A DNA stretch of 64,000 nt from an uncultured archaeon (GCA_964486045.1 CAZALK010000008.1:64001-128000), one strand, 5' to 3'; numbered from the stretch's first letter, positions 14,049 through 35,796 are shown. Numbers and translations are program-made. The notes: a model not told the origin generated them from the letters alone.

Positions 14049-15035
14049 TCAAGAAACTTTGAAATAACCGTAATCGTCAAGGTTTCTCTTTAGTTTTCCA
14101 ATAGCTTCCGGAAATATAGGAATGAGATTTTCATCTAAATATAACTCTTCTAATGAACTTAGCTCACTTAAGAAAGGCGGGATTTGACTCAATTGGTTAC
14201 TTGCTAAATCTAATAACTTTAGACGTGTGAGGTTCTTAAGTGACTCGGGTATTGTCTTAAAATAATTACGTCGCAAATCTAAATGCTTTAAATACTGAAG
14301 ACCGCTAAGAGATGGGGGAAATAATTCGAAAGAATTGTAAGACAAGACTAGATACTTAAGACTTTTTAGTCTCACGATATCCTCCGGGATTATTTTGCCA
14401 TTGTTAAAGATTCTCAATCCCGTAATTCTGAGATCTTTACCAATGTAATAAACGTTACTTGGGTCGCCAATACCGGTTATATCCTCCAAATATCTAGCAA
14501 ACGTAAAATGTTTCCCTATCTTTCTCTCTATGGTTTCAAGAACTAAAACATCGTCGATAAAGATCATACTTCGAAGCTCGTCTTCGGTCAAGTAATCGAT
14601 GTACCTATTAAAAACTAAATATTCCCTTGTCTTCTGACCCCCCTCAAATAGACGTTTTAAAATCTCAAGTTTAAATATTATACTAGCCTTAGCCTCACCG
14701 ACGTCGGTTAGTTTTTTTAATAGGGGGAATGCTAAGCTTCTATGAATCAAACGCGTATCATAATCATGTTCTACCCATGCCTGCAGGTTGGAACAATGCC
14801 CCCAAAACTCTTCCTTTGGAGTTATGCTATTCTTGGTGGTATCTGAACTTCTATCTAATCGCTTAAGTGACTCTGACGCTTCATCTATAGAATGAATATC
14901 GTCAAAATCCCTAACATTTTCTTGGGAAATATCTAACAAAATAGACTTGCATTGTCTAAACTTTTTACCCTTTATATATATGATAGTTTTATCTCCCCTA
15001 AGAGAGAGAGATATATATTCATTGACTTTAAACAT
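14049..15035 (-). CDS. 'FWGHCSNLQAW' domain plus C-terminal leucine-rich repeats
   Basis: FRQCK..SIDEA..FWGHCSNLQAW..YDTRLIH..FPLLKKL; LRRs LKYLVLSYN, LKHLDLRRN, LKLLDLASN, LEELYLDEN. Confidence 0.88.
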   Translation of the reverse strand: MFKVNEYISLSLRGDKTIIYIKGKKFRQCKSILLDISQENVRDFDDIHSIDEASESLKRLDRSSDTTKNSITPKEEFWGHCSNLQAWVEHDYDTRLIHRSLAFPLLKKLTDVGEAKASIIFKLEILKRLFEGGQKTREYLVFNRYIDYLTEDELRSMIFIDDVLVLETIERKIGKHFTFARYLEDITGIGDPSNVYYIGKDLRITGLRIFNNGKIIPEDIVRLKSLKYLVLSYNSFELFPPSLSGLQYLKHLDLRRNYFKTIPESLKNLTRLKLLDLASNQLSQIPPFLSELSSLEELYLDENLIPIFPEAIGKLKRNLDDYGYFKVS

Positions 15036-15138
15036 GTTTATATAAAACCCTTACTATATGGAGAAATAAAGTTATACTTTATTAAATTTTAACCTTATAA
15101 TTTGAGCAGACCTAATATTTTATAAAAAAAATAAAAAA

Positions 15139-18100
15139 TTATTGATTAAGCCTCAAAAAATCTTGAAAATATGAAAATGAGGCGATCTCAGTAGTTCGAA
15201 TAGGTAGAAAGTTAGAAATGTCTACCCACCTAGAAGGTAATCTTCCTAGGTTTGTATATGGTCCAGTTAAAACCACTTGAGTGAACTCTCGTCCTCTGTA
15301 GGTACTTAAAAATGCATTGGAGTTAGGGAGTATCGTACTTGAACTTCGTATGTATTTATGGTTGAAGTATGCTATATAATTCGAGTCGATGATAGTGGCC
15401 CCTGCCTTCTTTATAATAAACATAAAGTCTTGATAACTAAATGAGACTGGTCGAGTGTTATCCGCGCGCAATTCTCGTTCAAAAGAAAGCGATAGTAGCA
15501 CGAGGTATCGTAACTTTGTGATCTCGGAGATTTTTCCATAGGGATTACTAGAGTCTTCTAAGTTGATATCTACAAATGCTTCACCGGATCGTGGCAACCA
15601 TGTTTGGTCTGAAGTTGTTGTGGTTATGTATTGATATCCATAATCTATGCTTAAATCTTGAGATTGACCAAGATTCTGAGTAATGAAAATTCTAACTTTC
15701 CGAGAGCCGGCGGGTTGAGATTCAATTAAGTCTTTTAAGATATCCACTCTTTCATCGATTATCCTTTTATTATACTGTTCTCTAAATGCGGTGTCATAAT
15801 ATGACCAATCCAAATGACTTCTGCTTATTCGAGTAAATTTATCGGAGAACTTCTCCTTATCAATAGTTAACTTAAATATCTCTCCATCGACAATGCATCC
15901 ATAAAAATAGAGCTCGATCGTGGATGAAGTAAGGTCTTGAAAACCTCTATTTAACTGTAACCTCAAATTATCTTTAATCTTCCCTCCAAGGGAATCTACC
16001 GATGTATCAGTTGTAAAAGATCTTGTTAAATCTCTTCTAGCAAACATAAGGGTGTTATATGCATCTTCAAGATTTTTAGCTACTAATTTCCTATAATGTG
16101 ATTCAGATTCAACTTCGGAATAATATTTTGAAGTAAAGTGACTCATAACTTCTTGCTCTATGACGCTCATAATATCTTCATAAGCCATCATCTCTAGTGT
16201 CACTCGATTTATTTTAGGATCAGTCAAAGCATTGTCAATCTTATATTGGTTGAAAGATGTAAGAAAACTAGTCCCTATTGCACGCCCAATATATTGGTTG
16301 ATATGATTTATCCCAAAATCTCTCTTTAAATAAGCAGGTACAGAAATCCCTCCAGATAAAAAGGGTGAGGGGGCATAGCCGAAATAAAACGCGTTGTCAG
16401 CACCATTATCTCCCAAGATGGGCAAATACAAAAATGAATTCCCATATAAATATGATGGTAGGTGATTCTGAATAGCCCCCACAGTAGTAAGAGGTAAATA
16501 TCGTTTATTCTGACGATATCCATCCTGACTATCTTGAGAACTTGAAATGATATTCGCATCAATTATATAATCAACAACTGATTGGAAATGAATCCCTAAA
16601 GGCATTGCATGATAAAGCCCACCGCTAGTGAAATACCACATGGATCTTAATAATATTAAAGTCATAGTGAAGGGACCAACAAGATACTGGAACGCTTCTA
16701 GAAGAATAAGTCCGCGATCCAATTCAGAAAGACTGGAACCTGCATGGGATGTAGAGAACTCTTCATTAGCAGTGTTTAGTGAACCTAAGTTCATGATTAG
16801 GTCTTGAGTGTCGAGAATTATCTCATCAATTTCGTCTCTATTTTCAACACCAGGGTCTTCCCAGCTCATTACGATATCTTTGAAATTTTGGAGAAATTCT
16901 TTCATGGAAAGTTGACCTTTACCGTAAGGATTACCATCTTGATCACGATAAAATAATTTGTTAAATTGACTGAATCCAACTTTTTTCTTTAATCGAGTAA
17001 ATATCGCTTCTAAATCCTTGTCACTCCTTGCAGCGTTGTCGTCATATATAAATTCATCTCCTATGATAACTAGCCTTTGATTGAGCTTCTGAAGGTCTTT
17101 TAGGATGGAGAATACAGGCATAACTTTCGTATTCGCTCCTGCTGTGAGCTTAGCTATTTGGGAAAGTTCTATATAGCCTTTAAATAGATCATCAGTAGAT
17201 ATAGGGTTAGAATCGGGAAGTTTAAGTAAAGAATCTTGCATGACTTTTCGTCTTTGAAGAACTGTGGAACTAGAAACAACTTTCTTATGAGCATCAGTTG
17301 GAATGATTGTAGAATGAACTGGTTGTATAAGATATGTTAGCTTCGTACCTGCCTCATGTTTAGCTGAACGAAGATAGTCAAGGGTGTAGTATTTTTGAAT
17401 TCCGGGGAGTAAGGGTAGTCCTAAAACAATTTCCTGGGTTACTGGGTCTGTATAAGAAATGGATATAGGATCTGAAAGTGCTTGATTTAAAATTTGTGCC
17501 AGAGTCTCAAGGGGCATCACAGCAATTTCAATGAATTGGCCATTTGAATGGCGTATAAATACTTCTCCTATATTCAGAAATCCGTTCTTACTTAAGAAGA
17601 CCCCTTCAAAAACCTTTATAAGTCTACCACCAACAGAATAACTATATCCGTCGGCTGTACCCGAAGGTAATTCTAACTGAGGTGTCTCTGCTAGTAGTAT
17701 ACCATTCTCATTCCTATCATTATGCACAGCTAATAAATTACCAGATAAAATCCTATTAATTTCTTGTTGGCTTAATCTGGAAGGTTCCTTTACAACATAC
17801 TTATCGTTTTCTAAAAGAACAAAATAGGGGACGTTTTGAATTAAGTCTAATGGAATTGGAGTCGTTGTTGGTACATAGACCTTGAAACTGTTATCATAAG
17901 ATATTTGATAAAAGCCATTTAAGTCCTGAGTTATAAGCTGTTCAAGATTTAAATTCTCCTGTTGCCACCTAGGTATTTTAGTAACTTCGAATTTATCCAT
18001 TACAAGCTGTAGCATAGAATCAGCCTGTGAAGCTGAGAATATTTGAGAAGCGTAAACCTTTATTTGGTCATTGAAACTTTTATCTTTAAATAAATTATAT

Positions 18101-20958
18101 AATTCATTCATAAAAGTCACCTTGTTGTTTGAACTTATCTTTTCGTTAATAAGTTTAGAGACTTTTGAATATAGTTCTATGAATTTGGCGTACTTCCTAG
18201 TTTCTTCTCTTGACCTAGATCCTCGGTAAGTAGAGACTATATCACTTGGTTCTTGTATGAATGTAAGTTCTTTAATAACTCTGAATATCGACGAAGGATC
18301 ATCTGGATCCAAAGCTACAACCCAATGTTCATTTTGAGTTTCGATATTAATGTCGTTCAGAGCGACGCTCCTTGATGTAGCACCAAAAATTGTACTAAAC
18401 AAGTCATAAATGATATTCAAAAGATAATCACTTTTGACGTTGTTAGCATTCTTAACTTCCCAATTATAAAATCCTATGCCTTCAACTAAGAGAGAAATGA
18501 GGTCTCCTTCTCTCCAATTATCATTCGACCCGAACAAATCTGCATCGTTATTTATCTTATCGACGATACTTTGTAAAGTATTTCCATCAAGGATTTGTTC
18601 CATGTCTGTTACCATGTCTTGGTTTTTCGTGGAATAAGGATTAAAGACAAGATATGTATAAAGCGTTAATTTATCAAAATCTATCGAGTAACTTTTCGCG
18701 ATTAATTCCATAAATAAGAAATAAGGCAGTATTCCCAAAAATGAAAGTGCTTGAAGTTCCCACCCTATCTGGACGCTTCTTGACTCAAACCTCATATGTC
18801 TTGTATTTGGGGCAGTCTCGAAACTCTCTGCAAATTTAAGCATGGCACGTGGAAGGCCATCTGAAACAAACTCCCTCTGTAAGCTCTCTATATCCGCGGT
18901 TGATAAGAATGAATCGATATCTGAAGCTAAATCTGTCTCCCCGATGGTTTGTACATTGAAATGGGCACGTACTTCTTCCAAGAAAAATACTAATGCTGAA
19001 TACTTAAGCGCTTGATTGAACAAGTCGTCGACATAAGTATAACCCTTAGTTCTTGTTGTATAATCAAACTTCTTTTTATATTTTTCCTCAAAAATTTTGC
19101 TTGCAAGCTTTGTAGCAACATCTTTTTGCGCTATGGTTGCGCTAGGATTTAATATATTATGTGCACCCATATAAGTATTTTCAATAAAAGACTCCAAAGC
19201 GGTTAGAATACCACCCATACTCGCAACAACTTCCGACTTTTCGAGATTAAAAGAAATGACTGAAGGATTAACAAATTGATTAATAACTTCTTCTATTTGT
19301 GCCACAACAGCAGGATTTAAGTTGAAGAGGTCGGTTGGATTTTTAAAGATCGGAGCGATGAGATCCTTAATTTCCACAAAACCTGGATATTCATTAAAGA
19401 ACCAATCAGGGATTGGAACCATGTCTTCAACGCCTGTTTGGGAGGTAAAGTCAGGATCTGTGACGATTTTTATACTTTCCGATAATCCTAGATATTGTTG
19501 CTGTAATGCGACTTTACTTCTAAAATTATATCCGATTAAATCGAAGACTTGTTCAATTGGCATACTCCCTCTTAAAGGAGTATTTACGATAGTTCCATCT
19601 TCTCTTATTTCTTCAACTTCGTAGCCAGGTAAAAGGACATTAGGAAATTCTCCATCACCTTTAAACATAGGTATTTGCCCTTCTTTTAAGCCAAGCATTG
19701 CTATAAAGCCATCCAAGTCAAGACCACCCCTTATGATCTTCTTAGGGTTTCCAACCTGATCAGTCCACCTCACGTATGGTGCGCCAGTTAAGGGGTTATA
19801 TCTTAAGAAGGGAAGAACCCAATGCCTAACTCCATTCTCGTCAGTATAGACGGGATCTCCTGATGTTTCAGCAAATAATTGTTCGGAGATAGCAACGATC
19901 TCTACATCAGATATGCCCTTATCAAGAGTGAGAGACTGGATGGTTGAAAGTCTTTTTTGTTCATTTCTTTTAGATTCGTATCTAATTTTCATTTGCTCAT
20001 TATACGTGAACTCCTCTTGTAATTGGGGTTGAATGACCTGCAATTGAGATTTAGCTGCTGAGGGTGAAGCAACCGTTTGAACCGAAACTAAGTTTTTGGT
20101 CACAAATGGAGCGATTTCATTAGCTTTAAGAGCTGGTTTAGGCTTTAAGAATTCTGAAAGCTGTAGTCTGCCTTCAGAGAACTTTCGATTGTAACGATTC
20201 TTTAGGGCATTAAATATAGCATCCGAACCTAAATCTAAACCATAAAGCATAATGCCGACTCCAGCTCCTCCAAAGAAGAAGCTAGGAATAGTGGCTAGGA
20301 TGCCTGAGACTGTATCGAAGTCTATATATTTCTTAAGAGATGCCCGAATACTTGTTTTATCTAACTTAACCTCTTGCTGCGTTGCAATCTGGGTATCTGT
20401 ATCTGTACCCCCTTTACTAATCCTACTTTTAATAGCACTTGAGACACCTCCAATAAAAGCTTCACGGAAAGAGGTCACAAGTAATGAAAAGAAGTCTGCT
20501 GCTTCTTGATCTCCACCTAAGTTAAGAACCATTCGTTGAGTCCATTTTTCAAGATAGGGGTCTAAATACAATTCTTCTATGATCTCCGAGGCGACACCAA
20601 AAGGTATCGTTACGAGACCTAACGCAACAGCTTGCTTAAAGGAGTATGCGGGCATTGAGGCGATCTTAGCCACAGTCAAGGGTAATAGGACAAGCGTAGA
20701 GATCAACGTTGACCAAAATGTGACTAAAACAGTATAATCGCGTTCAGCTAAGTTAGTACTATCTGTAAACGCCATCTGAGCTTGGTTCACATAATCGGAA
20801 ATGGTATAGGAGACAGTCTGTGCTAAAATAGTTCGTGCATGGTTATCAGAAGAATCAGTGGTATCAATATAACGTTGTGTATAAGATATTGTAGGATAGT
20901 GAAAACCAATAGTTACTGAGTTGTCTGGACGATCATTTGGATCTTGATAGCCGACCAC
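15139..20958 (-). CDS. 1939-aa hypothetical protein, probably the 5'-truncated C-terminal part of a giant protein
   Basis: Long ORF with no convincing start or RBS; frame stays open about 15 codons further upstream to a junction near 21000; three hydrophobic helices near the start. Confidence 0.75.
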   Translation of the reverse strand: MVGYQDPNDRPDNSVTIGFHYPTISYTQRYIDTTDSSDNHARTILAQTVSYTISDYVNQAQMAFTDSTNLAERDYTVLVTFWSTLISTLVLLPLTVAKIASMPAYSFKQAVALGLVTIPFGVASEIIEELYLDPYLEKWTQRMVLNLGGDQEAADFFSLLVTSFREAFIGGVSSAIKSRISKGGTDTDTQIATQQEVKLDKTSIRASLKKYIDFDTVSGILATIPSFFFGGAGVGIMLYGLDLGSDAIFNALKNRYNRKFSEGRLQLSEFLKPKPALKANEIAPFVTKNLVSVQTVASPSAAKSQLQVIQPQLQEEFTYNEQMKIRYESKRNEQKRLSTIQSLTLDKGISDVEIVAISEQLFAETSGDPVYTDENGVRHWVLPFLRYNPLTGAPYVRWTDQVGNPKKIIRGGLDLDGFIAMLGLKEGQIPMFKGDGEFPNVLLPGYEVEEIREDGTIVNTPLRGSMPIEQVFDLIGYNFRSKVALQQQYLGLSESIKIVTDPDFTSQTGVEDMVPIPDWFFNEYPGFVEIKDLIAPIFKNPTDLFNLNPAVVAQIEEVINQFVNPSVISFNLEKSEVVASMGGILTALESFIENTYMGAHNILNPSATIAQKDVATKLASKIFEEKYKKKFDYTTRTKGYTYVDDLFNQALKYSALVFFLEEVRAHFNVQTIGETDLASDIDSFLSTADIESLQREFVSDGLPRAMLKFAESFETAPNTRHMRFESRSVQIGWELQALSFLGILPYFLFMELIAKSYSIDFDKLTLYTYLVFNPYSTKNQDMVTDMEQILDGNTLQSIVDKINNDADLFGSNDNWREGDLISLLVEGIGFYNWEVKNANNVKSDYLLNIIYDLFSTIFGATSRSVALNDINIETQNEHWVVALDPDDPSSIFRVIKELTFIQEPSDIVSTYRGSRSREETRKYAKFIELYSKVSKLINEKISSNNKVTFMNELYNLFKDKSFNDQIKVYASQIFSASQADSMLQLVMDKFEVTKIPRWQQENLNLEQLITQDLNGFYQISYDNSFKVYVPTTTPIPLDLIQNVPYFVLLENDKYVVKEPSRLSQQEINRILSGNLLAVHNDRNENGILLAETPQLELPSGTADGYSYSVGGRLIKVFEGVFLSKNGFLNIGEVFIRHSNGQFIEIAVMPLETLAQILNQALSDPISISYTDPVTQEIVLGLPLLPGIQKYYTLDYLRSAKHEAGTKLTYLIQPVHSTIIPTDAHKKVVSSSTVLQRRKVMQDSLLKLPDSNPISTDDLFKGYIELSQIAKLTAGANTKVMPVFSILKDLQKLNQRLVIIGDEFIYDDNAARSDKDLEAIFTRLKKKVGFSQFNKLFYRDQDGNPYGKGQLSMKEFLQNFKDIVMSWEDPGVENRDEIDEIILDTQDLIMNLGSLNTANEEFSTSHAGSSLSELDRGLILLEAFQYLVGPFTMTLILLRSMWYFTSGGLYHAMPLGIHFQSVVDYIIDANIISSSQDSQDGYRQNKRYLPLTTVGAIQNHLPSYLYGNSFLYLPILGDNGADNAFYFGYAPSPFLSGGISVPAYLKRDFGINHINQYIGRAIGTSFLTSFNQYKIDNALTDPKINRVTLEMMAYEDIMSVIEQEVMSHFTSKYYSEVESESHYRKLVAKNLEDAYNTLMFARRDLTRSFTTDTSVDSLGGKIKDNLRLQLNRGFQDLTSSTIELYFYGCIVDGEIFKLTIDKEKFSDKFTRISRSHLDWSYYDTAFREQYNKRIIDERVDILKDLIESQPAGSRKVRIFITQNLGQSQDLSIDYGYQYITTTTSDQTWLPRSGEAFVDINLEDSSNPYGKISEITKLRYLVLLSLSFERELRADNTRPVSFSYQDFMFIIKKAGATIIDSNYIAYFNHKYIRSSSTILPNSNAFLSTYRGREFTQVVLTGPYTNLGRLPSRWVDISNFLPIRTTEIASFSYFQDFLRLNQ

Positions 20959-20975
20959 ACCGGGACCTACTACAC

Positions 20976-21111
20976 CTACAAGAACATTTGCGAAGGAACA
21001 CAGTTATCACATTTGATTTCATCAAATTCTTCCCAATCGCTTCTAAATACTTCAATTATTCCCCTTCCACTAAGCTTAGGACAGGTTCGGGGTTTTCGAA
21101 TAGTTAACATT
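20976..21111 (-). pseudogene. remnant of a small DnaJ-type zinc-finger ORF
   Basis: MLTIRKPRTCPKLSGRGII...IKCDNC resembles a degenerate CxxCxGxG...CxxC, cut where the giant ORF begins. Confidence 0.4.
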
Positions 21112-21426
21112 TCTCTAAAATGTATCATACTAGACAAAAACACATTCTTATATAAAGAAAAAATCCCAAAAGGAATTGTAAAAATTAAACGGTTTTTGGC
21201 ATAAGCCCCCATTTAATGGCTTCCAACATAATATCATAAAAATCGATATCACTTTCATTCTGCTTTTTTTCATCCTTCATATCATATTTCACCTTTAATC
21301 TACTTTCAGTTATCCACCTATTTAAAATTTAGTATGAGTTGAATTTTAAGTTTGGATAAATTAAAATAAAATTTTACAGCGAATTTTTCTTTAAAAGTGT
21401 CAGATACAATAATAAAATAATTTATT

Positions 21427-22467
21427 ATGACTTGTAAAAAAATTAATACTTTTAGGTGTGTCATAAATGAAAAAGATTCTCAAAAGATCAAAAACTTTTC
21501 TGTTTATCCTTCTGAGTGGTATATATACGATCAGGGAGTTCCTGATGACTATAGGGCCGTTGAGATTTCGCATGGTAATATTTCTACCATCGGCTTAGAT
21601 CGTGGTGTTTATGTCTGGGCTAATATGTATTCTAAGAATAACACATCTGGAGAAACACAATTTATTGCTCAAGTAAATTGGGGTTATTGGAATGATTCTA
21701 CATGTGTGTATAAAGGTGGGGTTATACCTGTTGAAGACGATGGAAGAATCTCAGAACGGATTTTTGGAAATGTATCTCTTTTTTACCAAGATGCATTTAG
21801 CTATAGTAATTTCGAGCAAAATTATACTGATTTTAATCTATTATCAATTACTTATTGGAATGAGACCTATAACGACTATTATGCTAGAGTCAATTTTTCA
21901 GATAGCGGCATTTTGCTTAGTTTTGAAGCGATCCCTGTAGGAAACTTTACTTTAATTTCTCAACCTTCTCGATTACCACCTATGTTCAGTTTCACTACTA
22001 ATAACGGACTTTTGGATATTAACTCCACTAATATAAAGCTCAAGATTAATACAACCGATGCTGATAACAATAATGACGGAATAAAAGATACTGATTACTT
22101 ATACCGCACCTTTATAAATTCGGTATGGACTGATTGGCTAACAATCCCCCCACTAATCCATTATGACTTAGGTTCTGTCTCTTCAGGTGAATATAATATA
22201 ACATTGGAAGTGAAAAATATGTATGGTACCACACAGGAGCAGATCACCGTGCATTACACAGAAAATATCCCCCCTATTGAAACGAAAGATACTACTATCC
22301 CTAGCGAATCAATCTTCGGTTATTCTGCTATAATAATTATCGTTGTATTGTTCTTCAGTATTTCAATTAGACTTTCAAAGACAGAAGAATATTGCAAAAA
22401 TAAGAGAACTACATTTTTTCCCCTTTTTTTTATTACAAATCTTTCACTCTTATTTTTCTTTTATTAA
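21427..22467 (+). CDS. putative extracellular/surface protein with a C-terminal anchor (N-terminus possibly decayed)
   Basis: Many N-x-S/T sequons, DADNNNDG loop, Ig-like GEYNITLEVKN, and SIFGY plus a hydrophobic helix resembling a Loki-CTERM/PGF-like tail. Confidence 0.6.
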   Translation: MTCKKINTFRCVINEKDSQKIKNFSVYPSEWYIYDQGVPDDYRAVEISHGNISTIGLDRGVYVWANMYSKNNTSGETQFIAQVNWGYWNDSTCVYKGGVIPVEDDGRISERIFGNVSLFYQDAFSYSNFEQNYTDFNLLSITYWNETYNDYYARVNFSDSGILLSFEAIPVGNFTLISQPSRLPPMFSFTTNNGLLDINSTNIKLKINTTDADNNNDGIKDTDYLYRTFINSVWTDWLTIPPLIHYDLGSVSSGEYNITLEVKNMYGTTQEQITVHYTENIPPIETKDTTIPSESIFGYSAIIIIVVLFFSISIRLSKTEEYCKNKRTTFFPLFFITNLSLLFFFY

Positions 22468-22683
22468 GGTTCACATTTTTAGGGTGTATGGTAGAATCAA
22501 ACCTTGCAGCAAGTTTAAGTTAAAAGACTCGGTGGTCTCACATAGTTTTATAATAGAGAAATTTGGGGATAAGTATGGTTTTCAATTAATTTACCAATCT
22601 CTATTAATATTAACTTCAGAAGGATTTTTAATTGGGGAGTTTCAGGATTATAATAGAAAATACAAAATAGCCACTTAATTTGT

Positions 22684-23907: not shown

Positions 23908-23986
23908 ATTTTTAAAGATTCTGAACTTTTATTCTTAATAGTTTGATAACAATTTTTCTCACTGTTTTCTGACTACTCTTTATTTT

Positions 23987-25309: not shown

Positions 25310-25550
25310 CTTTTTTCATAGTTCTTCTTTTGTTGTTTCTAATTCTTATTACTACAATTGGGATATATAAAGAAAAAATTTTGCATATGATCTTGTGGTT
25401 CGATTAATGTCGTATTTAATTAGTAAAATTTTCTTGAATTTAAAAATTTTTAATTAAATGTAAAAGAACTTCCCTAGTTGAAAATTACAAAGTTAACCCC
25501 GACTAATAATATTAATACTTTTTTTCTTTAAATATTCAAAAAATCAGGGA

Positions 25551-26840
25551 TTGTTAATGTCAAAGATTTCACCTAAAAAAATTGTTGATGGAGTTCAGCA
25601 TAAAATAAGACAGATTAAAGTTGAAGTATCAAAAGTTGCAGAGTATTTTAAGCCAAAGTTTGGGAGATTACGAGTTAAACTTCAATTAAGGAGTGCTAAT
25701 AGAAAATTTCGGAGCCGTAAATTTCTTTCAGCGTATCATATATTGATTATCGCATCATCAAATGCTAAAATCTTTAAGATGCGAAAGCAGTTCATGGAAA
25801 TTATCCAAGAAAGAATCAAGCAAACACTTAATCAAATTGATAGAAAGATACAAAAAGACACAACTGTGCTGAGAAGAAATCTGAGTGAGCAATTAGAAAA
25901 AAGACAATTTTCAGTTGTAATAGATAAATGCACTTCATTTTTTACTTCATTACAGAATTATCCTCAAACTGATATAACTGAAAAATGCAAGGCTTTAATT
26001 CGTAAAGAATTTGATATCGCAACTAAATTGTTCTGGGAGGGTGTCTATAAAGAAGACTTTGCTAAAATCGTAAATTTGAAGAAACGCCGCAATTTTGGTT
26101 TAGCAATTAATATAGGGAGAGAATTTCTTAAGAAAACTCAGAATGTATCATTAGTACCAGGAATTAAGATATATAGAGACAGAATTTTTGATTTGATTCA
26201 AGACCCAATTGCTCAAAAATGGTTAGGAAAATACAAAACTATAAAGAATTATACCACGAAAATAAGAACTCATAGGCAATTTGAACAAGCGGTAATGCAA
26301 TCAGAAAAGTTTCTAAAATATAGTCTAAAAGACCAAGACGTTGTCGCGGTTCACCAGCTGAGACTTAAAACTACTAAAAAGGTTGAAAGGCTTCAAACAG
26401 ATTTAATCTTTTTTGGAAGGAAAGATAATTATGATAATTTTGTAACTAGGGCAATGATTAATTATGAACTCGGATGTTATGAGAGAGCAATTAAATATAT
26501 AGATAAAGCAATAAAATTACTGAAATTATATCAATTAGAAGAACAAGAAGTTCTCATTAAAAATACCAAAATATTTGTTAAGAATGTGCAATTTAAGTTC
26601 TTATGCCAGGATAAAATAAGAGAAAGGGAAATACGGGTTATGATTGATACTGCCCGTAAGTTATACTATGATGAAAAAGAAAGTAAAGCTATAAGCGTAT
26701 TATTAGAAGCTCAGGGGCAGTTTAATATGTTTTCCACATTATATAAAGATTTAGAGAATAAAGCTTATAAAAAGCTATTTCGGGAGATCCGAAATGGTAT
26801 TAACAAAGAACGAATAAAAGTGAGTGAGATTTCATTATAA
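25551..26840 (+). CDS. basic alpha-helical (TPR-like) hypothetical protein
   Basis: 429-aa ORF, K/R-rich; YELGCYERAIKYIDKAIKL is TPR-like. Confidence 0.65.
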   Translation: MLMSKISPKKIVDGVQHKIRQIKVEVSKVAEYFKPKFGRLRVKLQLRSANRKFRSRKFLSAYHILIIASSNAKIFKMRKQFMEIIQERIKQTLNQIDRKIQKDTTVLRRNLSEQLEKRQFSVVIDKCTSFFTSLQNYPQTDITEKCKALIRKEFDIATKLFWEGVYKEDFAKIVNLKKRRNFGLAINIGREFLKKTQNVSLVPGIKIYRDRIFDLIQDPIAQKWLGKYKTIKNYTTKIRTHRQFEQAVMQSEKFLKYSLKDQDVVAVHQLRLKTTKKVERLQTDLIFFGRKDNYDNFVTRAMINYELGCYERAIKYIDKAIKLLKLYQLEEQEVLIKNTKIFVKNVQFKFLCQDKIREREIRVMIDTARKLYYDEKESKAISVLLEAQGQFNMFSTLYKDLENKAYKKLFREIRNGINKERIKVSEISL

Positions 26841-26854
26841 AAAGGTGAACATCC

Positions 26855-27082
26855 ATGCCAAAAAAGAGAATAGGTGAAGATAAGTTAATACAAGTGTATG
26901 TGTGTGTAAAGTGTACGCTTGGAATGATAGTAATCGAAGATAAACAAGGTGAGGTGCAGAATTTAACATATATTTCCAGATTCTTAAAGAAGCATCCTAA
27001 CCCTGAACTCATGACATTAAAGAAATTTAAGGAAGTAAGCAGGAAGAAACTACTTCAAATAAAAACAGCATTTAATAGGTAA
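26855..27082 (+). CDS. small hypothetical protein with CxxC
   Basis: AGGTGA RBS upstream, YVCVKC, operonic with 25551. Confidence 0.65.
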   Translation: MPKKRIGEDKLIQVYVCVKCTLGMIVIEDKQGEVQNLTYISRFLKKHPNPELMTLKKFKEVSRKKLLQIKTAFNR

Positions 27083-27143
27083 ATTTTTTTACTTTACTTA
27101 TCCTAATCATAAGGATTAAGAGGAAAAAAAGAGTGAGAATACG

Positions 27144-28004
27144 TTGAGAAGAAGACGATTTAGTTTAAAAAAGGAAAGATCACTACCCAAAGATTCCATA
27201 TTAATCCCTAAAATCACCAAAGAACAAGTGTTCAATTATATTCAACAACATCTTGGAGGTAGAAATTCCAAAATTCCTCTAAAAAGGATTGAAGTTTCTT
27301 TACCGGAAGCAGTTCAATTCTTTAACCACAATGGGTATCAATCGGGAGCTATGAAGGCATATTCAGAATTACTTAGGGGCTTGATTTCAGAATTAGAAAA
27401 AGAAGAGAAGATAATTATTACTTATCGTTCTATTCAAGAAGGAAGAAGATTAATACGGTTCCCAATGATCGAACCGTTTGATCCTGCAAAAGTCAGAAGA
27501 AGAGTTCCACGCCAGACAATTAAAGGCAGATTTAGGGGTATTCATCTTTTTCAAAGTCGCCCTCTGCGAAAATATTGGGGACTAATTCTCCTATTCCTAT
27601 GTATTCCGTTATTAATTATGGTAGTCCCCCTTTTTCTCCCGAAACCTGTCGTGGTTGAGAATAATGACCTAGTTAAGATTAAATATTCAGTATGGGTTTC
27701 TGACAAATACAAAAATTATGATAAGGAAAATCCTTATTTTGATGGTCAAGTTTGGGTAACTGTCATTTCAGTCGTCGATGCTTTTCCTAATGGGTTAATG
27801 TTAGGTTTGTATAATAATTTACTCGGAAAAGTGAAAGGCTTTGAAAGTGAATTGATATGGTTAAATAAATGTGTTGATGAAAATGTCGATGGTGTTGATG
27901 ATATTACCGGAGAACCAGCACTAACTTATGGGAAAAGTAATGATCTCTACTTTGGATTTTATTTAATGATAAAGTTCAAGGTTTTGGATATTGAGAAACC
28001 TTAA
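27144..28004 (+). CDS. single-pass membrane protein with a basic N-terminal domain and a degenerate FKBP-like C-terminal domain
   Basis: TM segment YWGLILLFLCIPLLIMVVPLF; VENNDLVKIKYSVW, LMLGLYNNLLG and LMIKFKVLDIEK follow the FKBP strand/helix pattern. Confidence 0.55.
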   Translation: MRRRRFSLKKERSLPKDSILIPKITKEQVFNYIQQHLGGRNSKIPLKRIEVSLPEAVQFFNHNGYQSGAMKAYSELLRGLISELEKEEKIIITYRSIQEGRRLIRFPMIEPFDPAKVRRRVPRQTIKGRFRGIHLFQSRPLRKYWGLILLFLCIPLLIMVVPLFLPKPVVVENNDLVKIKYSVWVSDKYKNYDKENPYFDGQVWVTVISVVDAFPNGLMLGLYNNLLGKVKGFESELIWLNKCVDENVDGVDDITGEPALTYGKSNDLYFGFYLMIKFKVLDIEKP

Positions 28005-28084
28005 AATCTTGAGAGACCATGAAAAATGGCAATGAATAGTTAAACTTCTTAATTATAAGTGGAAATGATATTAAAAAAGGTGTT

Positions 28085-29584
28085 ATGAGTAGATTGATAT
28101 GTTGTGAATGCGGTTCAGAGGATATTAAAGCTGTGCTAACTCAACCAGCAACCTTTAAATGTAAATGCTGCGGTCAGGTTTGGATCGACTCTAAATTATT
28201 AAAAGAACTTCCTGATTCTTTGAAGCAGTTTGTATTTCATATTAATGAGCACATTACGGTAAGGTTAGAAGATGAACATACGAGAATTTATGTAAATTAT
28301 AAACTATTTACTCAATGCGCAATTTTATTAGTAGAGATTTCCTTTTCCGATGCACCCAAGTATGATAAAATACAATCAATTGATGAAATTGCTTTCAATT
28401 TAGGGTGGCCACATCAACAAGATGAGGTTAGTTATAGAATACCTCCTGAAGTTGAATTTATGGGTCATTGTTCTAACCTACAAGCGTGGGCGGATAATAA
28501 TTATGATACAAGACTCCTTCATTCCAATATTTCGTTTCCTCTGTTAAAAAAATTAGTAGAAGCGGGAGATACAATGGCTAAAAGAAGATTCAAAGAGGAG
28601 ATCGGTTTGAGGTTTGAGAGCGGATACCCCCCTACTCTCCTGTTTTTATTGGAAGAAAAGTATATAGGATATCTGACTCTTGAAGAACGTTCAGTACTTT
28701 TAAAAAATATTAATTTTACATCTTTGATGAAACATCAACCGGCTATCCTTTTTCCCTTATTAATCGAATTATCCTTGTTGGGAGTTAGAAAAGCAAAAAT
28801 TCTTTATAAAAATGAGCTCTATAATATTTCTAACATATACAAGCTTTCATACATGTATGGGGAGATCGAAAGAAGTTTTAAAATCTTGGATAATCAGGAA
28901 TTTCTACATTTTTTTCTCTATGGGATCAAAGCATTTTTCACAGCAGGGAGAAAGAAAACATATTTTAAGATATTAAAACTCTTTATTTCTGAAGCTTGCT
29001 CTCGTAGAATTCTCGATGATGAGAATAGTAGCAGTTATCTCATTATTCACTCAATTTCCTCTCAAATAACCCAAGAAAATGCTAAAGATTGGCCTGATAT
29101 TTTCTGTCAAATTATAGATCGTAAACGAAATACTTCTCTCGATTCCTTAATAATTGCAGAACTGGTGGGTAAGTTTGCGCTTCTTGATAAATATAAAAGG
29201 ATAAGTGTTATCACCGGTATTTTTATCAATATTTGTCAGTCAGATGTTATTCAAAAGCAACGAAGTGATCTTGTTAGGATAATAAATATTGCTTTAGGGG
29301 GGTTAGAGGAGATTGATGATATTTCTGAGGTGGGAGGGGGTCTTCATATGATGCTTACAGCCCTTCATAGAACCCTCTTTCTGAAAGAATATATCGACAT
29401 GATACGTAAAAAACTCGTCTATTTTCTTAATAATTTAGATCCTAATTCAGTGCTTGCCACATCGGATTTTATAGGTGATATAGCCACTAGAATTCAGACC
29501 ATTAAATGTAGAAGTTCTCGTGGAAAGCTGTCTTCCTTGTTAAAAAACCATCCCGTAATTAAAAAATTGGAGAAAACTATTTAA
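28085..29584 (+). CDS. N-terminal Zn ribbon, 'FWGHCSNLQAW' domain and helical C-terminal region
   Basis: CCECGS..CKCCG; FTQCA..SIDEI..FMGHCSNLQAW..YDTRLLH..FPLLKKL. Confidence 0.85.
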   Translation: MSRLICCECGSEDIKAVLTQPATFKCKCCGQVWIDSKLLKELPDSLKQFVFHINEHITVRLEDEHTRIYVNYKLFTQCAILLVEISFSDAPKYDKIQSIDEIAFNLGWPHQQDEVSYRIPPEVEFMGHCSNLQAWADNNYDTRLLHSNISFPLLKKLVEAGDTMAKRRFKEEIGLRFESGYPPTLLFLLEEKYIGYLTLEERSVLLKNINFTSLMKHQPAILFPLLIELSLLGVRKAKILYKNELYNISNIYKLSYMYGEIERSFKILDNQEFLHFFLYGIKAFFTAGRKKTYFKILKLFISEACSRRILDDENSSSYLIIHSISSQITQENAKDWPDIFCQIIDRKRNTSLDSLIIAELVGKFALLDKYKRISVITGIFINICQSDVIQKQRSDLVRIINIALGGLEEIDDISEVGGGLHMMLTALHRTLFLKEYIDMIRKKLVYFLNNLDPNSVLATSDFIGDIATRIQTIKCRSSRGKLSSLLKNHPVIKKLEKTI

Positions 29585-29666
29585 AATTGTCATATAGTTT
29601 TAGTCCCTCATTCTTGCCTTAGCTATGGTTTACACCTCTCTTTTTGGTGTATCTTTTCTCATTATA

Positions 29667-29915
29667 CTAATTTCTAAAATTTATATCTTGAAACCACCGT
29701 GAAATTTTTTCTTTTAATTCAATTACTTCGCCTAAAGTTGTGAGTTTCGTGTTATTTTGATAGTTTACCAAATCATTTTTTGTAGTTTCAGGTACCATTA
29801 TGTTTTCTAGTAAATTATTAAGTAACATTTTAATTAACAGATAATTGACTGTAAGTTCTTTAAGTGGGGTATTGGTTACAATATAAAGTTGGTGTTGTCC
29901 TAAGATCATACCCAA
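29667..29915 (-). CDS. small hypothetical protein
   Basis: 82-aa ORF in tandem with 29934 and 30315. Confidence 0.4.
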   Translation of the reverse strand: MGMILGQHQLYIVTNTPLKELTVNYLLIKMLLNNLLENIMVPETTKNDLVNYQNNTKLTTLGEVIELKEKISRWFQDINFRN

Positions 29916-29933
29916 TTTAACGATTTCTCGGTT

Positions 29934-30221
29934 TTATTCATTTGTCAAAGCATCATGAACTAATTCACTGCAAGCATCTCTCATTACATTAAATTTATCA
30001 TAGTTTTGCTTTATAAAAGTAGCAGGATCGTTGTTTGCTAATAATTCTTCAAAAATATCTAATGAATTATATATTCCCATGAGACCTAACGCTTTTAAAT
30101 ATTCCTTGATTACTTCCAGTCTGAGTTGAAAGGTTAGAGCACCACCAGACGCGCATTCTGAACTACTAGACGGAAGAAGCTCTAAACTATAACCCAATTC
30201 CAAAATTTGTAATTCGGACAT
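29934..30221 (-). CDS. small hypothetical protein
   Basis: 95-aa ATG ORF with protein-like composition. Confidence 0.55.
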   Translation of the reverse strand: MSELQILELGYSLELLPSSSSECASGGALTFQLRLEVIKEYLKALGLMGIYNSLDIFEELLANNDPATFIKQNYDKFNVMRDACSELVHDALTNE

Positions 30222-30314
30222 TTTTATTATTATCCCTTTTGATTTATCGTGTACTTGCTTTTTTCCATTCTTTATCTTGTGTAACTTTTTAGTTATTTAA
30301 AGAAATATTACTTA

Positions 30315-30797
30315 TCAAAGTGAGTTTTCCAGCAATTTTCTAAGGACTGCTTGCTGTCCTTTTAATGTTTCATTATTTACCATTCCCTTACATTCTTCTG
30401 AAAATTCCATAATAAAATCAATTATCTTTTCTTCTTTATCCTGAATAAGTGGCTTCTCAATTTTTCTTATTTTCGCTTTCAAAATCTTTTCAATCTCAGG
30501 GCTCAAAACTTCAATATTATATTGTATTAGCTTGTCCCGAAGCTCCTTCCCTTCAACGGTCAACTTATATTCTCTCCGGTCATCACCCCCAAACTCACCC
30601 CCTTTTTTTAAAATTTCAATAAAACCAAAACTGGCAAGAGCATTTATTTTTGAATAAAGGGTATCTTGAGACAAATCAGGGAATAAATTCCTTATTTTTC
30701 GAGAAGTAGTAAATCTTTCAATATCTAGCCGTTTTAATATTACGATACTTCTAAGCGCATTCCACATTCGAGTACTACTCATTAACAATAAAACCAA
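30315..30797 (-). CDS. winged helix-turn-helix DNA-binding protein (MarR/HxlR/PadR-like)
   Basis: LSQDTLYSKINALASFGFIE...DRREYKLTVEGKEL wing motif. Confidence 0.8.
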   Translation of the reverse strand: MVLLLMSSTRMWNALRSIVILKRLDIERFTTSRKIRNLFPDLSQDTLYSKINALASFGFIEILKKGGEFGGDDRREYKLTVEGKELRDKLIQYNIEVLSPEIEKILKAKIRKIEKPLIQDKEEKIIDFIMEFSEECKGMVNNETLKGQQAVLRKLLENSL

Positions 30798-30824
30798 ATA
30801 AAATAGATTTGACTATAATATGTA

Positions 30825-30912
30825 TAGTTTTTGAAATATTTAAAACTAGTTTTTGATTTTTCCAATACTAGTTTTTGAGTTATTTAAGACTAGTCTTTGA
30901 AATACTAAAAAC
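30825..30912. repeat. four tandem 22-bp quasi-palindromic repeats (operator or iteron array)
   Basis: TAGTTTTTGAAATATTTAAAAC, TAGTTTTTGATTTTTCCAATAC, TAGTTTTTGAGTTATTTAAGAC, TAGTCTTTGAAATACTAAAAAC at 30825/30847/30869/30891, followed by TTTAAATA. Confidence 0.9.
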
Positions 30913-31023
30913 TTTAAATACTTAAGTATCTATTTATCTTCTTAATATATTTAAATTTTAGAAAAGACAATTATTTGAAACGAGGGTTTAAAAATTAGTA
31001 ACTTAGAGAATTACAAGGAGATT

Positions 31024-31368
31024 TTGAAATTTCTTGAAGGACATCCAATCTTAGAAGGATTGTTTGATAGGTTAAGAAACTCTTTAGAAGACCTATCTGA
31101 AAATAAGTTTGAGGCGCAGTGTGATAAGTATCTAGATTGTTTGGAGTTTTTAAGTGAAATTGTTACGTCTTACGGAGAGATTTTGGAATTTCTTGAAGAA
31201 GAACCGATTCTAAAGGTGGAGTTTGATAGTTTAAGACATTCTTTGGAGTCTCCCCCAGATAATTGTTCAGAACAAAATTTTGAAAGACATTATGAAGATT
31301 ATCAAGAATTGCTGAGCTTTTTACATGAGATAGTAGCGCTTCCGAAAAATAAGAAGTTTTTTGTTTAA
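31024..31368 (+). CDS. acidic helical protein built from two internal repeats
   Basis: FLEGHPIL..FDRLRNSLE..FE..Y...LEFLSEIV and FLEEEPIL..FDSLRHSLE..FE..Y...LSFLHEIV. Confidence 0.65.
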   Translation: MKFLEGHPILEGLFDRLRNSLEDLSENKFEAQCDKYLDCLEFLSEIVTSYGEILEFLEEEPILKVEFDSLRHSLESPPDNCSEQNFERHYEDYQELLSFLHEIVALPKNKKFFV

Positions 31369-31471
31369 AAGTTCAAGAGTATTATAATATTAAATTATGA
31401 AAGAAAGATAAGGTGAAAATAGCTTTAGATCTTAACGCAGAATTAATAAACTCCATATCTATTATGTAATT

Positions 31472-32047
31472 ATGGTAGATGTAACTCAAAAATTAGAGAA
31501 TCATAGTATAAGATCCCTAAAAGAGGATGTTACTCACTTACTTGAGAATTATAAAGAAAAGGATAATATTGAGCTCCTTTCAGAGAAATTGATAGACCGA
31601 TTTAAATCTTGGTTAGTTTCATATGACGATTGGAATCCTGGAGATCTTATTCGTGAAGATGTTATAGAACACTTAAAAATCATAATTGACAATTATGAAG
31701 ACATTTGCAATGACGGACGCATAATAGATTTTGTTCTAAAAACGTATAAGTTTGAACGAGACGGTACAAGCATCGATTTTAGTAAGGAAGACATGAAAAG
31801 GATAACAGACTTGAAGGGAGAATTGGAAGAGATATTTTTTGTAGACCATGTATTTTCTAAATCTTGTAACTCTTTATTTATTTCACGGTTTAAAAATTGG
31901 TGTAAAGATCCTTATGCATTATGCAAAGATCATAATGGAAACTACGATAAATTCGGTGACCAAGCAGGAATAATGTTCGATTATCTAACCAAAGAAATTG
32001 CTTGGTATTGCTCAATAAATTTACCACATAGAAAATTAGTGAAGTAA
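31472..32047 (+). CDS. hypothetical protein
   Basis: 191-aa ATG ORF, no recognised motif. Confidence 0.7.
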   Translation: MVDVTQKLENHSIRSLKEDVTHLLENYKEKDNIELLSEKLIDRFKSWLVSYDDWNPGDLIREDVIEHLKIIIDNYEDICNDGRIIDFVLKTYKFERDGTSIDFSKEDMKRITDLKGELEEIFFVDHVFSKSCNSLFISRFKNWCKDPYALCKDHNGNYDKFGDQAGIMFDYLTKEIAWYCSINLPHRKLVK

Positions 32048-32126
32048 AATTCAAGCTAAAATTTTTCTTTAAATATGATAGGTTACAATTCTATACATTC
32101 AGTATAAATCAAAAAAGAGATAGAAT

Positions 32127-32600
32127 ATGAAAACAAAATTGAAGAAAAAGTCGTTAGAATTACTCCTTACGATATTGGGATGTGATCAAGAGATGTTAGA
32201 ACTAGTCCTACATCTCTTTGAAAGGTTTAAAGCTGAGTTTGGGAAAGATATCCTACATAATGTTGTTAAGGATTTAAAGGAAACGGATGGGAGATGTCAT
32301 TTTGAAAATTTAATACTAGGTGTTTTGTTGGAGGTATTAGATGAAATAAATAGAAAATATATGCTAGAGTTTGATTGCTCTTGCTTAGAACAAAAAAGGT
32401 ATTATCAGAAGGATTATAATGGAGTTACGTACCCTTCCAGAAATATAATTATGTTGTTAGGAGGTAGCACTGATATTAATGCAAAAGAATGGTGTAGTAC
32501 TATAACCCATGAAATATTACATTTTATCTTTTACAATTTTGGCATCGCCTACCAATGGATTAACGAAAGAATGGTAAAAAGTTTAATGAAAGATACTTAA
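32127..32600 (+). CDS. HExxH zinc-metallopeptidase-like protein (ImmA/IrrE-like)
   Basis: YNGVT...NIIML...STITHEILHFIF...NERMV. Confidence 0.6.
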   Translation: MKTKLKKKSLELLLTILGCDQEMLELVLHLFERFKAEFGKDILHNVVKDLKETDGRCHFENLILGVLLEVLDEINRKYMLEFDCSCLEQKRYYQKDYNGVTYPSRNIIMLLGGSTDINAKEWCSTITHEILHFIFYNFGIAYQWINERMVKSLMKDT

Positions 32601-32684
32601 AAGTTTCTATAGCTAAATTTTAATATGTAACTTCATTAATCACTATGCAGCCAAGAGTATAAAAATATTCGGATATGATCGAAA

Positions 32685-34061
32685 TTGCCTATAAAATCCA
32701 CCTTATTAGATACGTTTAAGAAAAACGTGGACGGTTTAAAGAGAAAGCAGTCAAAGTTTGTCTATGGGATAACGATTTCCTCATTCCAACCTTTCAATCC
32801 AGAGAGGTTTCTCGTCGGTCGAGTTACTTTTCAACCTGTAGGGAAAGGAAATATTGACGTACCACTGTTAATAAGTAAATCCCTTGAAATTTTAAGAGAA
32901 ACTACAGAATTTCTTTTTGATATATCAATTCAAAAAACTATAGCTCTCTTTAACGGAGATTTTTACGGTTTTTCTTATTTTGAGGATGAGACTTCCACTA
33001 AAAAAAAAGGCAAGGTTAGTTTTGAGTTAAAGGCTTTAATAGAAGATTCCTATCAAGATTGTTTCGTTATAGAATTACCAGAGTCCGACTTTAACTTTAA
33101 TGACACCAGACCAATATATGTCCAACTTCTAACGGCTTCATTGACAAAAAAAGAACGGGATAGTTCTGCTTGGCTTCATAATGCGAACATATCCGAAACT
33201 TATGATTTCGAAGAAGAGTTTTCATTGATGAGTCCCCGCCCTAGAAAGCCGCCTATTGCATTAGGATTGAACGATTTAGGTATGATTGAGGACATTGATC
33301 TTGAACACAGAGTTTTTATGGTAGAACACGAAACCGTATCCGAAATATCTAGAAGCAAATCACCAGATTTACAAGATAAAGTATTACAGGAGTTTAAGAT
33401 AAACAAACATATAACGTTAAAATTACTCGACAATGCAACATTAGGGAAGAAGTCAACACGTATTTTTATTGATAATAGTCCCTTTTTACAATGTATGTAT
33501 ATAATGTTAAATAATCCTCAAGAAAATCCCCTACAATCAGAAATTGATTCAATCGATGAGGCGACGGAAAAATTAGATAGTCGATTAGAATTCTTCTTTA
33601 GTCCTCCCACCCCCATCTCCCCCGAGTCTATATTTTGGGCTCATTGCTCAAATCTCCAAGTATGGTATGAACTCGGATATGATTCCAGAATTCTTCACAG
33701 TAATTTATCTTTTCCACTTCTAAAGAAATTGGTTGATGTTGGAGATCCTAAAGCTAAACAAGTTTTTAAAGAAGAGATAGCGAAACGTATATTAGATCAA
33801 TATCTTCCTGTAACTATTTACTTGTTAGACGAACGATATTTGGATTATCTAAATGACTCTGAAATTGAATATATATTCCACACACTGTCTGAACAAATTA
33901 TGATTCCGAATTCTGAACTTAAAAACGAAAAATTTGCCAACGTTCTACTCAAAACTGGATCTTCCTATCTAAAGAAGGGCGTATATGCAGGACATCTAGC
34001 TATTGATCTATGTATAAAACTCAGAAACCTTCTTAACAGCCATCCTAGTAGGGAAAAATAA
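32685..34061 (+). CDS. unknown N-terminal domain plus C-terminal 'FWGHCSNLQAW' domain
   Basis: FKINKHITLKL..FLQCM..SIDEA..FWAHCSNLQVW..YDSRILH..FPLLKKL..GDPKAK.VFKEEI. Confidence 0.85.
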   Translation: MPIKSTLLDTFKKNVDGLKRKQSKFVYGITISSFQPFNPERFLVGRVTFQPVGKGNIDVPLLISKSLEILRETTEFLFDISIQKTIALFNGDFYGFSYFEDETSTKKKGKVSFELKALIEDSYQDCFVIELPESDFNFNDTRPIYVQLLTASLTKKERDSSAWLHNANISETYDFEEEFSLMSPRPRKPPIALGLNDLGMIEDIDLEHRVFMVEHETVSEISRSKSPDLQDKVLQEFKINKHITLKLLDNATLGKKSTRIFIDNSPFLQCMYIMLNNPQENPLQSEIDSIDEATEKLDSRLEFFFSPPTPISPESIFWAHCSNLQVWYELGYDSRILHSNLSFPLLKKLVDVGDPKAKQVFKEEIAKRILDQYLPVTIYLLDERYLDYLNDSEIEYIFHTLSEQIMIPNSELKNEKFANVLLKTGSSYLKKGVYAGHLAIDLCIKLRNLLNSHPSREK

Positions 34062-35753: not shown

Positions 35754-35796
35754 TAGTAATCAGTCGTAGTTTTATAGAAAATTAACAGGTGAAAGA

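What the first reader, a model, noticed from the sequence alone, without database searches (positions are those of the whole stretch)
14049..34061. Five island proteins share one conserved domain fused to swappable LRR / TPR / Zn-ribbon modules (possible sensor-effector system)
Seen: a ~140-aa domain (F..N..I.L.L...IY....F.QC...SIDEA...F[WM][GA]HCSNLQ[AV]W....YD[TS]R[LI][LI]H....FPLLKKL...G[DE]..A...FKEEI..R) occurs in five ORFs. These are 14049 (+LRR), 22684 (+TPR), 23987 (degenerate, +TPR), 28085 (Zn ribbon before, helical tail after) and 32685 (unknown domain before). All five are inside the island and none is outside it. The C...HC...H residues are kept in four copies; in 23987, which sits directly upstream of 22684, the QC segment is missing and HC is YC. 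Recollection: this motif is highly expanded in Lokiarchaeia proteins usually annotated only by their LRRs. Inference: a constant metal-binding, catalytic or adaptor domain plus variable ligand-binding repeats parallels innate-immune receptor architecture. The intact/degenerate tandem pair resembles a sensor-helper pair.
Basis: partly seen in the sequence, partly recalled or inferred. Interest (0 to 1): 0.8.

Follow-up and report, generated by a model that had tools for sequence, protein, structure and literature searches.

The report
Asgard toxin-immunity proteins' shared adaptor domain
An undescribed protein domain, copied about 40 times in this Asgard (Loki-type) archaeon and fused mostly to leucine-rich repeats, marks genes that travel as matched partners of the swappable tips of giant toxin-like surface proteins, so many of these proteins are probably antidotes used in warfare between archaeal strains.

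Summary
Observation confirmed: all five ORFs carry one ~157-aa domain ('D') with no Pfam, PDB or fold match, inside a real 23-kb insertion. D is not island-specific: ~40 copies genome-wide (congeners 4-14), nearly confined to one Lokiarchaeia family.

The clue lies next door. 14049 (D-LRR) directly follows 15139, an orphan C-terminal cassette of giant (up to 20,000 aa) polymorphic-toxin-like proteins. One ~1,500-aa cargo class is followed by a D gene in 11/13 discovery and 19/24 held-out loci (background 1.1%). Pairing is cognate: in 13/16 held-out loci the partner tracks the cargo subtype, and all five homologues of the window cargo pair with 14049-like genes, in either orientation.

Best reading: D-LRR proteins are toxin-immunity proteins, LRR for specificity, D a constant docking module. 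Cargo toxicity, binding and D's partner are untested; the four non-LRR copies have no demonstrated cargo. The metal site is unresolved and the 22684/23987 pair is not conserved. Earlier scan notes saw D and the giants on other DNA; the cognate pairing was tested here.

The parts
14049..15035 (-). D domain (aa 1-158) + cap-like linker + LRR array, 328 aa; cognate partner (probable immunity protein) of the 15139 cargo
15139..20958 (-). Orphan C-terminal cassette of a giant polymorphic-toxin-like protein, 1939 aa: junction region (aa 13-308, homologous to giants on contigs C9/C10) + ~1,500-aa 'long cargo' of unknown fold; stalk missing
22684..23907 (-). D + TPR-like region, 407 aa; full-length orthologues at 42-63% identity in other Lokiarchaeia
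23987..25309 (-). Degenerate D (QC/SIDEA segment lost, HC to YC) + TPR, 440 aa; no orthologue found
28085..29584 (+). Zn-ribbon-like CxxC pair + D + unique helical tail, 499 aa
32685..34061 (+). Unknown ~230-aa domain + D, 458 aa; paralogues on C33 and C43 with the same 114-aa upstream gene; an orthologue sits next to a 22684 orthologue in L186
13080..13760 (.). Left island boundary repeat (5' part and promoter of the intact 225-aa gene of the phosphate-transport cluster)
36104..36765 (.). Right island boundary repeat (truncated 194-aa copy of the same gene, 80% DNA identity)
13761..36103 (.). Inserted island, absent at this site in congeners G002 and G004; no integrase or transposase recognised

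Best explanation
This Lokiarchaeia family has giant surface proteins with swappable C-terminal cargo (a polymorphic-toxin layout). D-LRR proteins are the cytoplasmic cognate partners, most likely immunity proteins, of one cargo class of ~1,500 aa. 14049 is the partner of the orphan cargo cassette 15139. Many solitary D-LRR genes are orphan immunity genes against cargos of other strains, which explains the strain-specific expansion. Shown: adjacency, cognate co-variation, persistence next to truncated cargo tips, orphan insertions. Inferred: the cargo is toxic; the variable linker and LRR bind the cargo; D, far more conserved than the cargos, binds a constant host partner (possibly the ubiquitin-like/degradation machinery) and so sequesters or removes the target. 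The same docking module is reused with TPR, WD40, Rab-like and other modules, in conserved housekeeping-type genes and in viruses. The four non-LRR copies in the island are probably further recognition proteins of this kind (a poly-immunity-like cluster); their targets are unknown.
For: Giants share stalks at 75-80% and then diverge, with HNH-like or PD-(D/E)xK-like motifs in several short tips; homologues reach 20,619 codons. The next gene is a D gene in 13/52 relatives' loci and LRR-only in 12. Long cargos form one remote family: D gene within two genes in 11/13 versus 4/39 for short cargos, and 19/24 in a held-out set versus 1.1% background. In G000, 9/10 long-cargo ORFs or remnants lie within 1.5 kb of a D gene. 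The partner tracks the cargo subtype in 13/16 held-out loci, expected ~1. Five homologues of the window cargo all pair with 14049-like genes, co-directional or convergent. L137 carries long cargo plus an extra tip and is followed by two genes: the tip's small partner, then D-LRR. D copy number is a median 14.5 in cargo carriers versus 4. Orphan copies group with toxin-linked ones, and one is a solo 1.6-kb insertion.
Against: The long cargo has no recognisable toxin domain or catalytic motif. Physical linkage alone also produces co-variation, and an all-pairs Mantel test was not significant (p=0.08 and 0.9). Most pairs are convergent, unlike operonic bacterial toxin-immunity pairs. About three quarters of the G000 copies have no cargo nearby, and conserved D genes (Ubl-linked, Zn-ribbon-LRR, Rab fusions) occur in genomes lacking cargo. 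Genomes are related, so p-values overstate.
Confidence: 0.65

Rival explanations
1. D is a ubiquitin-like-protein docking or degradation adaptor (F-box/SOCS-box logic): it couples whatever the variable module binds to the Lokiarchaeial Ubl system. This is compatible with the immunity role and would be its mechanism.
For: Partner set LRR/WD40/TPR/Rab mirrors F-box and SOCS-box proteins (established knowledge). The core D-LRR orthologue lies ~2 kb from an 88-96% conserved Ubl gene across several genera. The genome encodes E2 enzymes. Eight of 64 cargos contain an internal Ubl unit. D has a broad invariant polar surface. Viruses carry D.
Against: The synteny is one inherited locus. The Ubl is class-wide whereas D is family-restricted. 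Ubl units are not enriched in D-linked cargos (3/19 versus 4/31). No cullin was found. No direct test was made here.
Confidence: 0.35
2. The cargo is not a toxin but a delivered signal or kin-recognition module, or needs a chaperone, and D-LRR is its receptor or chaperone.
For: No toxin fold was found for the long cargo. Cognate pairing fits any dedicated partner.
Against: The cargo occupies the slot filled by nuclease-like tips in sister giants. D-LRR genes persist beside truncated tips and as orphans in strains without the cargo, which fits protection better than chaperoning.
Confidence: 0.15
3. One reading: D is the effector or signalling domain of innate-immune-like receptors that sense viruses, with 22684/23987 a sensor-helper pair.
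For: Constant-plus-variable architecture and variable copy number. 22684-type genes sit next to a degenerate D gene in 3 of 6 loci. D occurs on four viral contigs.
Against: No NTPase, TIR or nuclease domain and no PADLOC hit. The pair is not conserved in identity or order. The strongest association is with toxin-like cargo, not with defence genes.
Confidence: 0.12
4. D is an enzyme (Cys/His catalytic or metal site) that chemically inactivates the bound cargo or reverses its damage.
For: C 98%, H 95%, C 96%, H 87% conserved in 246 domains.
Against: Ten other polar residues are equally conserved, and part of the set was recruited by this motif. Four of 39 G000 copies have Ser for the second Cys. 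H and C are adjacent in mid-helix, not the usual i,i+3/4 ligand spacing (established knowledge). A D lacking all four residues still fills the immunity slot in L138.
Confidence: 0.12
5. D is merely a structural cap of repeat arrays.
For: It precedes LRRs in about half of the copies, and its last ~65 aa recur as a helical repeat.
Against: It occurs without repeats, C-terminally, twice per chain, and after GTPases. It is separated from the LRR by a 35-95-aa linker. It matches no known cap.
Confidence: 0.05

Closest known systems
Bacterial polymorphic toxin-immunity systems, including Imm-LRR, orphan cassettes and polyimmunity loci (Zhang et al. 2012, PMC3482391)
   Same: Constant stalk with swapped C-termini, an adjacent dedicated partner gene, standalone cassettes, LRR proteins in the immunity slot, accumulated orphan partner genes that differ between strains.
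   Different: Archaeal, with a 9,000-20,000-aa carrier and a ~1,500-aa cargo of unknown fold. The partner is usually convergent and carries an extra undescribed domain. The paper says most immunity superfamilies are absent in archaea and that Imm-LRR is not widely used.
SUKH (Smi1/Knr4) superfamily (PMC3113570)
   Same: A domain expanded in tandem and scattered paralogues that serves toxin immunity and is reused in other fusions and by viruses.
   Different: No sequence or fold match was found. SUKH is itself the binding scaffold, whereas here specificity appears to lie in the attached repeats.
F-box and SOCS-box substrate adaptors (own knowledge)
   Same: A constant box joined to LRR, WD40, TPR or Rab modules; also carried by viruses.
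   Different: D is 157 aa with a beta-meander and has no F-box or SOCS match. No cullin was found in G000, and the Skp1 search was uninformative.
NLR / AVAST immune receptors and sensor-helper pairs (own knowledge)
   Same: Variable repeat sensors (LRR, TPR, WD40); tandem intact and degenerate genes.
   Different: No STAND NTPase, no known effector domain, and the pair is not conserved.
Asgard LRR (alpha-beta solenoid) expansion (PMC13734099)
   Same: Asgard proteins annotated only as LRR, function unresolved.
   Different: The paper describes no accompanying domain or function; the present family is confined mainly to one Lokiarchaeia family.

Membership tests
Polymorphic toxin system | Carrier with constant N-terminal part and variable C-terminus | tested here: met
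   Giants 75-80% identical over 2,000-8,800 aa, then unrelated or remote tips; 60 loci in the family
Polymorphic toxin system | Standalone (orphan) C-terminal cassettes | tested here: met
   15139 begins at the junction region with no stalk upstream; others on C3, C5, C8, C11, C13
Polymorphic toxin system | Adjacent partner gene that co-varies with the tip | tested here: met
   19/24 adjacency, 13/16 cognate rank 1, 5/5 for the window pair
Polymorphic toxin system | Recognisable toxin domain in this cargo | tested here: inconclusive
   No Pfam, PDB or fold match for the long cargo; short tips of sister giants show HNH-like (Pfam E 0.04, below cut-off) and PD-(D/E)xK-like motifs
Polymorphic toxin system | Toxicity and neutralisation by the partner | not testable with these tools
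   Needs expression and rescue assays
Polymorphic toxin system | Export and delivery to neighbouring cells | not tested
   Most G000 giants start at contig ends; the window cassette lacks the stalk
Polyimmunity locus | Several tandem immunity genes in one operon, variable between strains | tested here: inconclusive
   Five D genes in a strain-variable island, but on both strands and interspersed; only 14049 has a demonstrated cargo
SUKH superfamily | SUKH fold or profile match | tested here: inconclusive
   No SMI1_KNR4 hit among 75 domains at E<=0.1; not listed in fold searches
NLR / STAND receptors | Central STAND NTPase domain | tested here: not met
   Pfam scan of the five proteins shows none, and their lengths are accounted for by D plus repeats
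NLR sensor-helper pair | Conserved linked pair across genomes | tested here: not met
   23987 has no orthologue in 134 genomes; neighbours of 22684 orthologues vary
F-box / SOCS-box adaptors | F-box or SOCS-box motif | tested here: not met
   No such Pfam hit in 75 domains
F-box / SOCS-box adaptors | Cullin and Skp1/Elongin partners in the genome | tested here: inconclusive
   No cullin match; the Skp1 search had no positive control
Known LRR N-cap | Restricted to, and contiguous with, the first LRR; known cap fold | tested here: not met
   20 of 38 complete copies lack an LRR array; C-terminal and duplicated positions occur
Cys/His metal site | Ligands cluster in 3D | tested here: inconclusive
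   No coordinates returned; the first Cys lies in a block with pLDDT 51

The most novel reading that the evidence does not exclude
Lokiarchaeia run an antibody-like intracellular immunity against contact-delivered toxins: diversified LRR/TPR/WD40 modules recognise incoming cargos and one constant domain hands them to the ubiquitin-like degradation machinery, an independently evolved archaeal analogue of F-box substrate adaptors that viruses have also captured.
Probability: 0.25. Interest if true: 0.92.

Novelty: new variant of a known kind. Interest (0 to 1): 0.74.

Why it matters
Asgard LRR proteins are abundant and their function is stated to be unresolved (PMC13734099), and polymorphic toxin systems are described as rare in archaea (PMC3482391). 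This links an undescribed domain and a large share of the LRR expansion in one Lokiarchaeia family to inter-strain conflict. It supplies dozens of natural cargo/partner pairs for a simple toxicity-and-rescue test, and it defines a new 1,500-aa cargo family of unknown fold. If D also docks the ubiquitin-like system, it would be a prokaryotic parallel of eukaryotic substrate adaptors.

Tried and rejected
Sequence searches for D in Pfam, NCBIfam, PADLOC, PHROGs and PDB found nothing. Fold searches of the D model gave no match in PDB or BFVD; the best Z was 5.7, on generic helices 99-162; Atlas hits were only the same Promethearchaeota family. This does not prove a new fold. The cargo tip model (pLDDT 67.6) gave no fold match, and profile searches were blank. 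Complex prediction of the cargo tip with 14049 returned 'no answer' and is not used as evidence either way. The idea that D grips a Ubl 'handle' on the toxin was tested by enrichment and not supported. An all-pairs Mantel test was not significant. The test whether LRR-only partners share the post-D cap was confounded by LRR residues. ORFs 29667 and 29934 did not match any cargo. The bacterial promoter scan is uninformative for an archaeon. The D tree is the quick version and poorly resolved. Literature searches found no description of D or of Lokiarchaeial polymorphic toxins; subscription journals are not covered.

Full report
Observation. The five ORFs are present and share a domain of about 157 residues, here called D. 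An HMM finds only these five in the window. Genome-wide it finds 39 near-complete copies and about nine fragments; a whole-genome search counts 42 matches against 4-14 in twelve congeners. The host is a Promethearchaeota (Lokiarchaeia) archaeon, judged from the names of homologues. D is in 47/54 genomes of its family, sporadic in two sister families and not found in 191 other Asgard genomes. There are 2,816 representatives at 50% clustering and four viral contigs of 93-112 kb carry it.

The island. A repeat of about 680 bp at 80% identity (13080-13760 and 36104-36765) brackets the region. It consists of the promoter and first ~190 codons of a gene in a phosphate-transport cluster; the left copy is intact and the right one truncated. 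G002 and G004 have one copy and run straight on to the 37515 gene, so the 23 kb are an insertion. No integrase was recognised. The diverged repeat suggests uptake from a related species by homology-assisted recombination (inference).

The domain. AlphaFold2 (pLDDT 83.5) gives a three-stranded meander, a poorly modelled variable loop (residues 31-70), a long helix carrying the HCSNLQ motif and a helical unit that also recurs alone as a repeat. No family or fold match was found. In 246 non-redundant domains the four Cys/His residues are 87-98% conserved, as are about ten other polar residues. This reads as a conserved binding surface; a metal site is neither shown nor excluded. Of 38 complete copies in G000, 18 have LRR arrays. 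The rest have TPR, WD40, a Rab-like GTPase, a gelsolin-like domain or helical tails. All but one lack a strongly hydrophobic segment, consistent with cytoplasmic proteins. D is therefore a mobile module and not an LRR cap.

The neighbour. The 1939-aa ORF upstream of 14049 begins with a region homologous to two giant proteins of the same genome and then diverges; the stalk is missing. The genome has two sets of such giants, 75-80% identical over thousands of residues with different C-termini, several with HNH-like or PD-(D/E)xK-like motifs. Using the junction as bait I fetched 60 loci from the family. In 52 informative ones the next gene is a D gene in 13, an LRR-only gene in 12 and a small unrelated gene in most others. 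That is the immunity slot of polymorphic toxin systems (PMC3482391).

Specificity. Cargos of about 1,500 aa form one remote family that includes the window ORF. A D gene follows within two genes in 11/13 of them, against 4/39 for short cargos. A search with the cargo profile alone gave 26 new loci; a D gene follows in 19 of 24 informative ones, against 1.1% for ordinary genes in the most D-rich genome examined. For each held-out locus I took the most similar of 17 reference cargos: its partner was also the best match of the held-out partner in 13 of 16 cases, where about one is expected. Four metagenomic homologues of the window cargo tip, and one genomic homologue, all pair with genes whose best match is 14049, some co-directional and some convergent. 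L137 carries a long cargo plus an extra tip and is followed by two genes, the tip's small partner and a D-LRR. In G000, 9 of 10 long-cargo ORFs or remnants, down to 50 codons, lie beside a D gene. Several solitary copies group with toxin-linked partners; one is a clean 1.6-kb insertion absent from three congeners. Genomes with long cargo have a median of 14.5 D matches against 4 (capped at 15; related genomes). Caveats: linkage alone yields co-variation, the all-pairs test was not significant, and the cargo has no recognisable activity.

Mechanism. Shown: pairing and co-travel. Inferred: a cell receives, or makes, a long cargo; the cognate D-LRR binds it through the variable linker and LRR and neutralises it. 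D is about 45% identical between partners whose cargos are 13-30% identical, and D also occurs in conserved genes, with GTPases and in viruses, so it probably docks a constant host partner. The ubiquitin-like system is the leading candidate: the core D-LRR gene sits ~2 kb from a nearly invariant Ubl gene, E2s are present and 8 of 64 cargos contain an internal Ubl unit. That link was suggested by an earlier scan note and is not demonstrated here.

The other four copies. 22684 has full-length orthologues. It neighbours another D gene in four of six loci, a degenerate one in three, but the partner and order differ and 23987 itself has no orthologue. 32685 recurs with its upstream gene on two other contigs. 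None of the four has a cargo nearby. They fit a cluster of recognition proteins carried on variable DNA better than a fixed sensor-helper pair.

Verdict. A real, undescribed domain. The system works like polymorphic-toxin immunity and meets the genomic criteria, but toxicity and neutralisation are untested. It is not an NLR, an F-box protein or a known cap. New variant of a known kind; interest 0.74.

Noticed in passing
G000 C13:8740-10611 (L174), C7 and C10 giants, L114, L127, L163, L168, L171: A ubiquitin-like unit, often ending in QAG/QAA-like residues, sits between the junction and the cargo in 8 of 64 toxin-like proteins; possible protease-release site.
   Followed up: partly
G000 C10:126182-126445 (L111): An 83-87-aa Ubl ending in GG is 88-96% identical across the family and present in all Lokiarchaeia families sampled; syntenic with a proline-rich mini-gene, a wHTH gene, the core D-LRR gene and nadA.
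   Followed up: partly
L100-L103: Four viral contigs of 93-112 kb encode D fused to non-repeat domains, in three separate places of the tree.
   Followed up: partly
window 13080-13760 / 36104-36765: Island bounded by a long, 80%-identical gene-fragment duplication with no integrase. In another organism (L182) a homologous cargo/D-LRR pair lies directly upstream of the DUF47 gene of the same phosphate cluster, so this may be an insertion hotspot.
   Followed up: partly
window 20983-22373: Surface-protein-like gene 92-97% identical in DNA to a copy on contig C33, which also carries homologues of 26855, 30315, 31024 and 32685 and several D genes: a related island.
   Followed up: no
window 32127-32600: 157-aa protein with an HExxH motif (weak SprT-like hit, E 0.04); no paralogue in the genome.
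   Followed up: no
window 46621-56088: 3155-aa highly hydrophobic (Leu/Ile/Phe-rich) multi-pass membrane protein, syntenic and 53% identical in G002.
   Followed up: no
G000 C16:16802, C17:48727, C33:1497: D fused to a Rab-like GTPase plus Zn ribbon, to a gelsolin-like domain (by eye), and to a WD40 propeller.
   Followed up: partly
L132, L140, L145, L146, L164, L169; G000 C13:8102: A second partner family, small Cys-rich zinc-finger-like proteins, follows ~1,250-aa cargos; similar genes stand alone in G000 (C3:222597, C23:48877).
   Followed up: no
G000 C8:144771-148160 (L173): A 1129-aa protein with a kinase-like N-terminus and helicase-like C-terminus (by eye) lies head-to-head with a long-cargo remnant and its D-LRR gene.
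   Followed up: no
window 31024-31368: 114-aa acidic protein with an internal 53-codon duplication; copies on C33 and C43 are always upstream of a 32685-type D gene.
   Followed up: no
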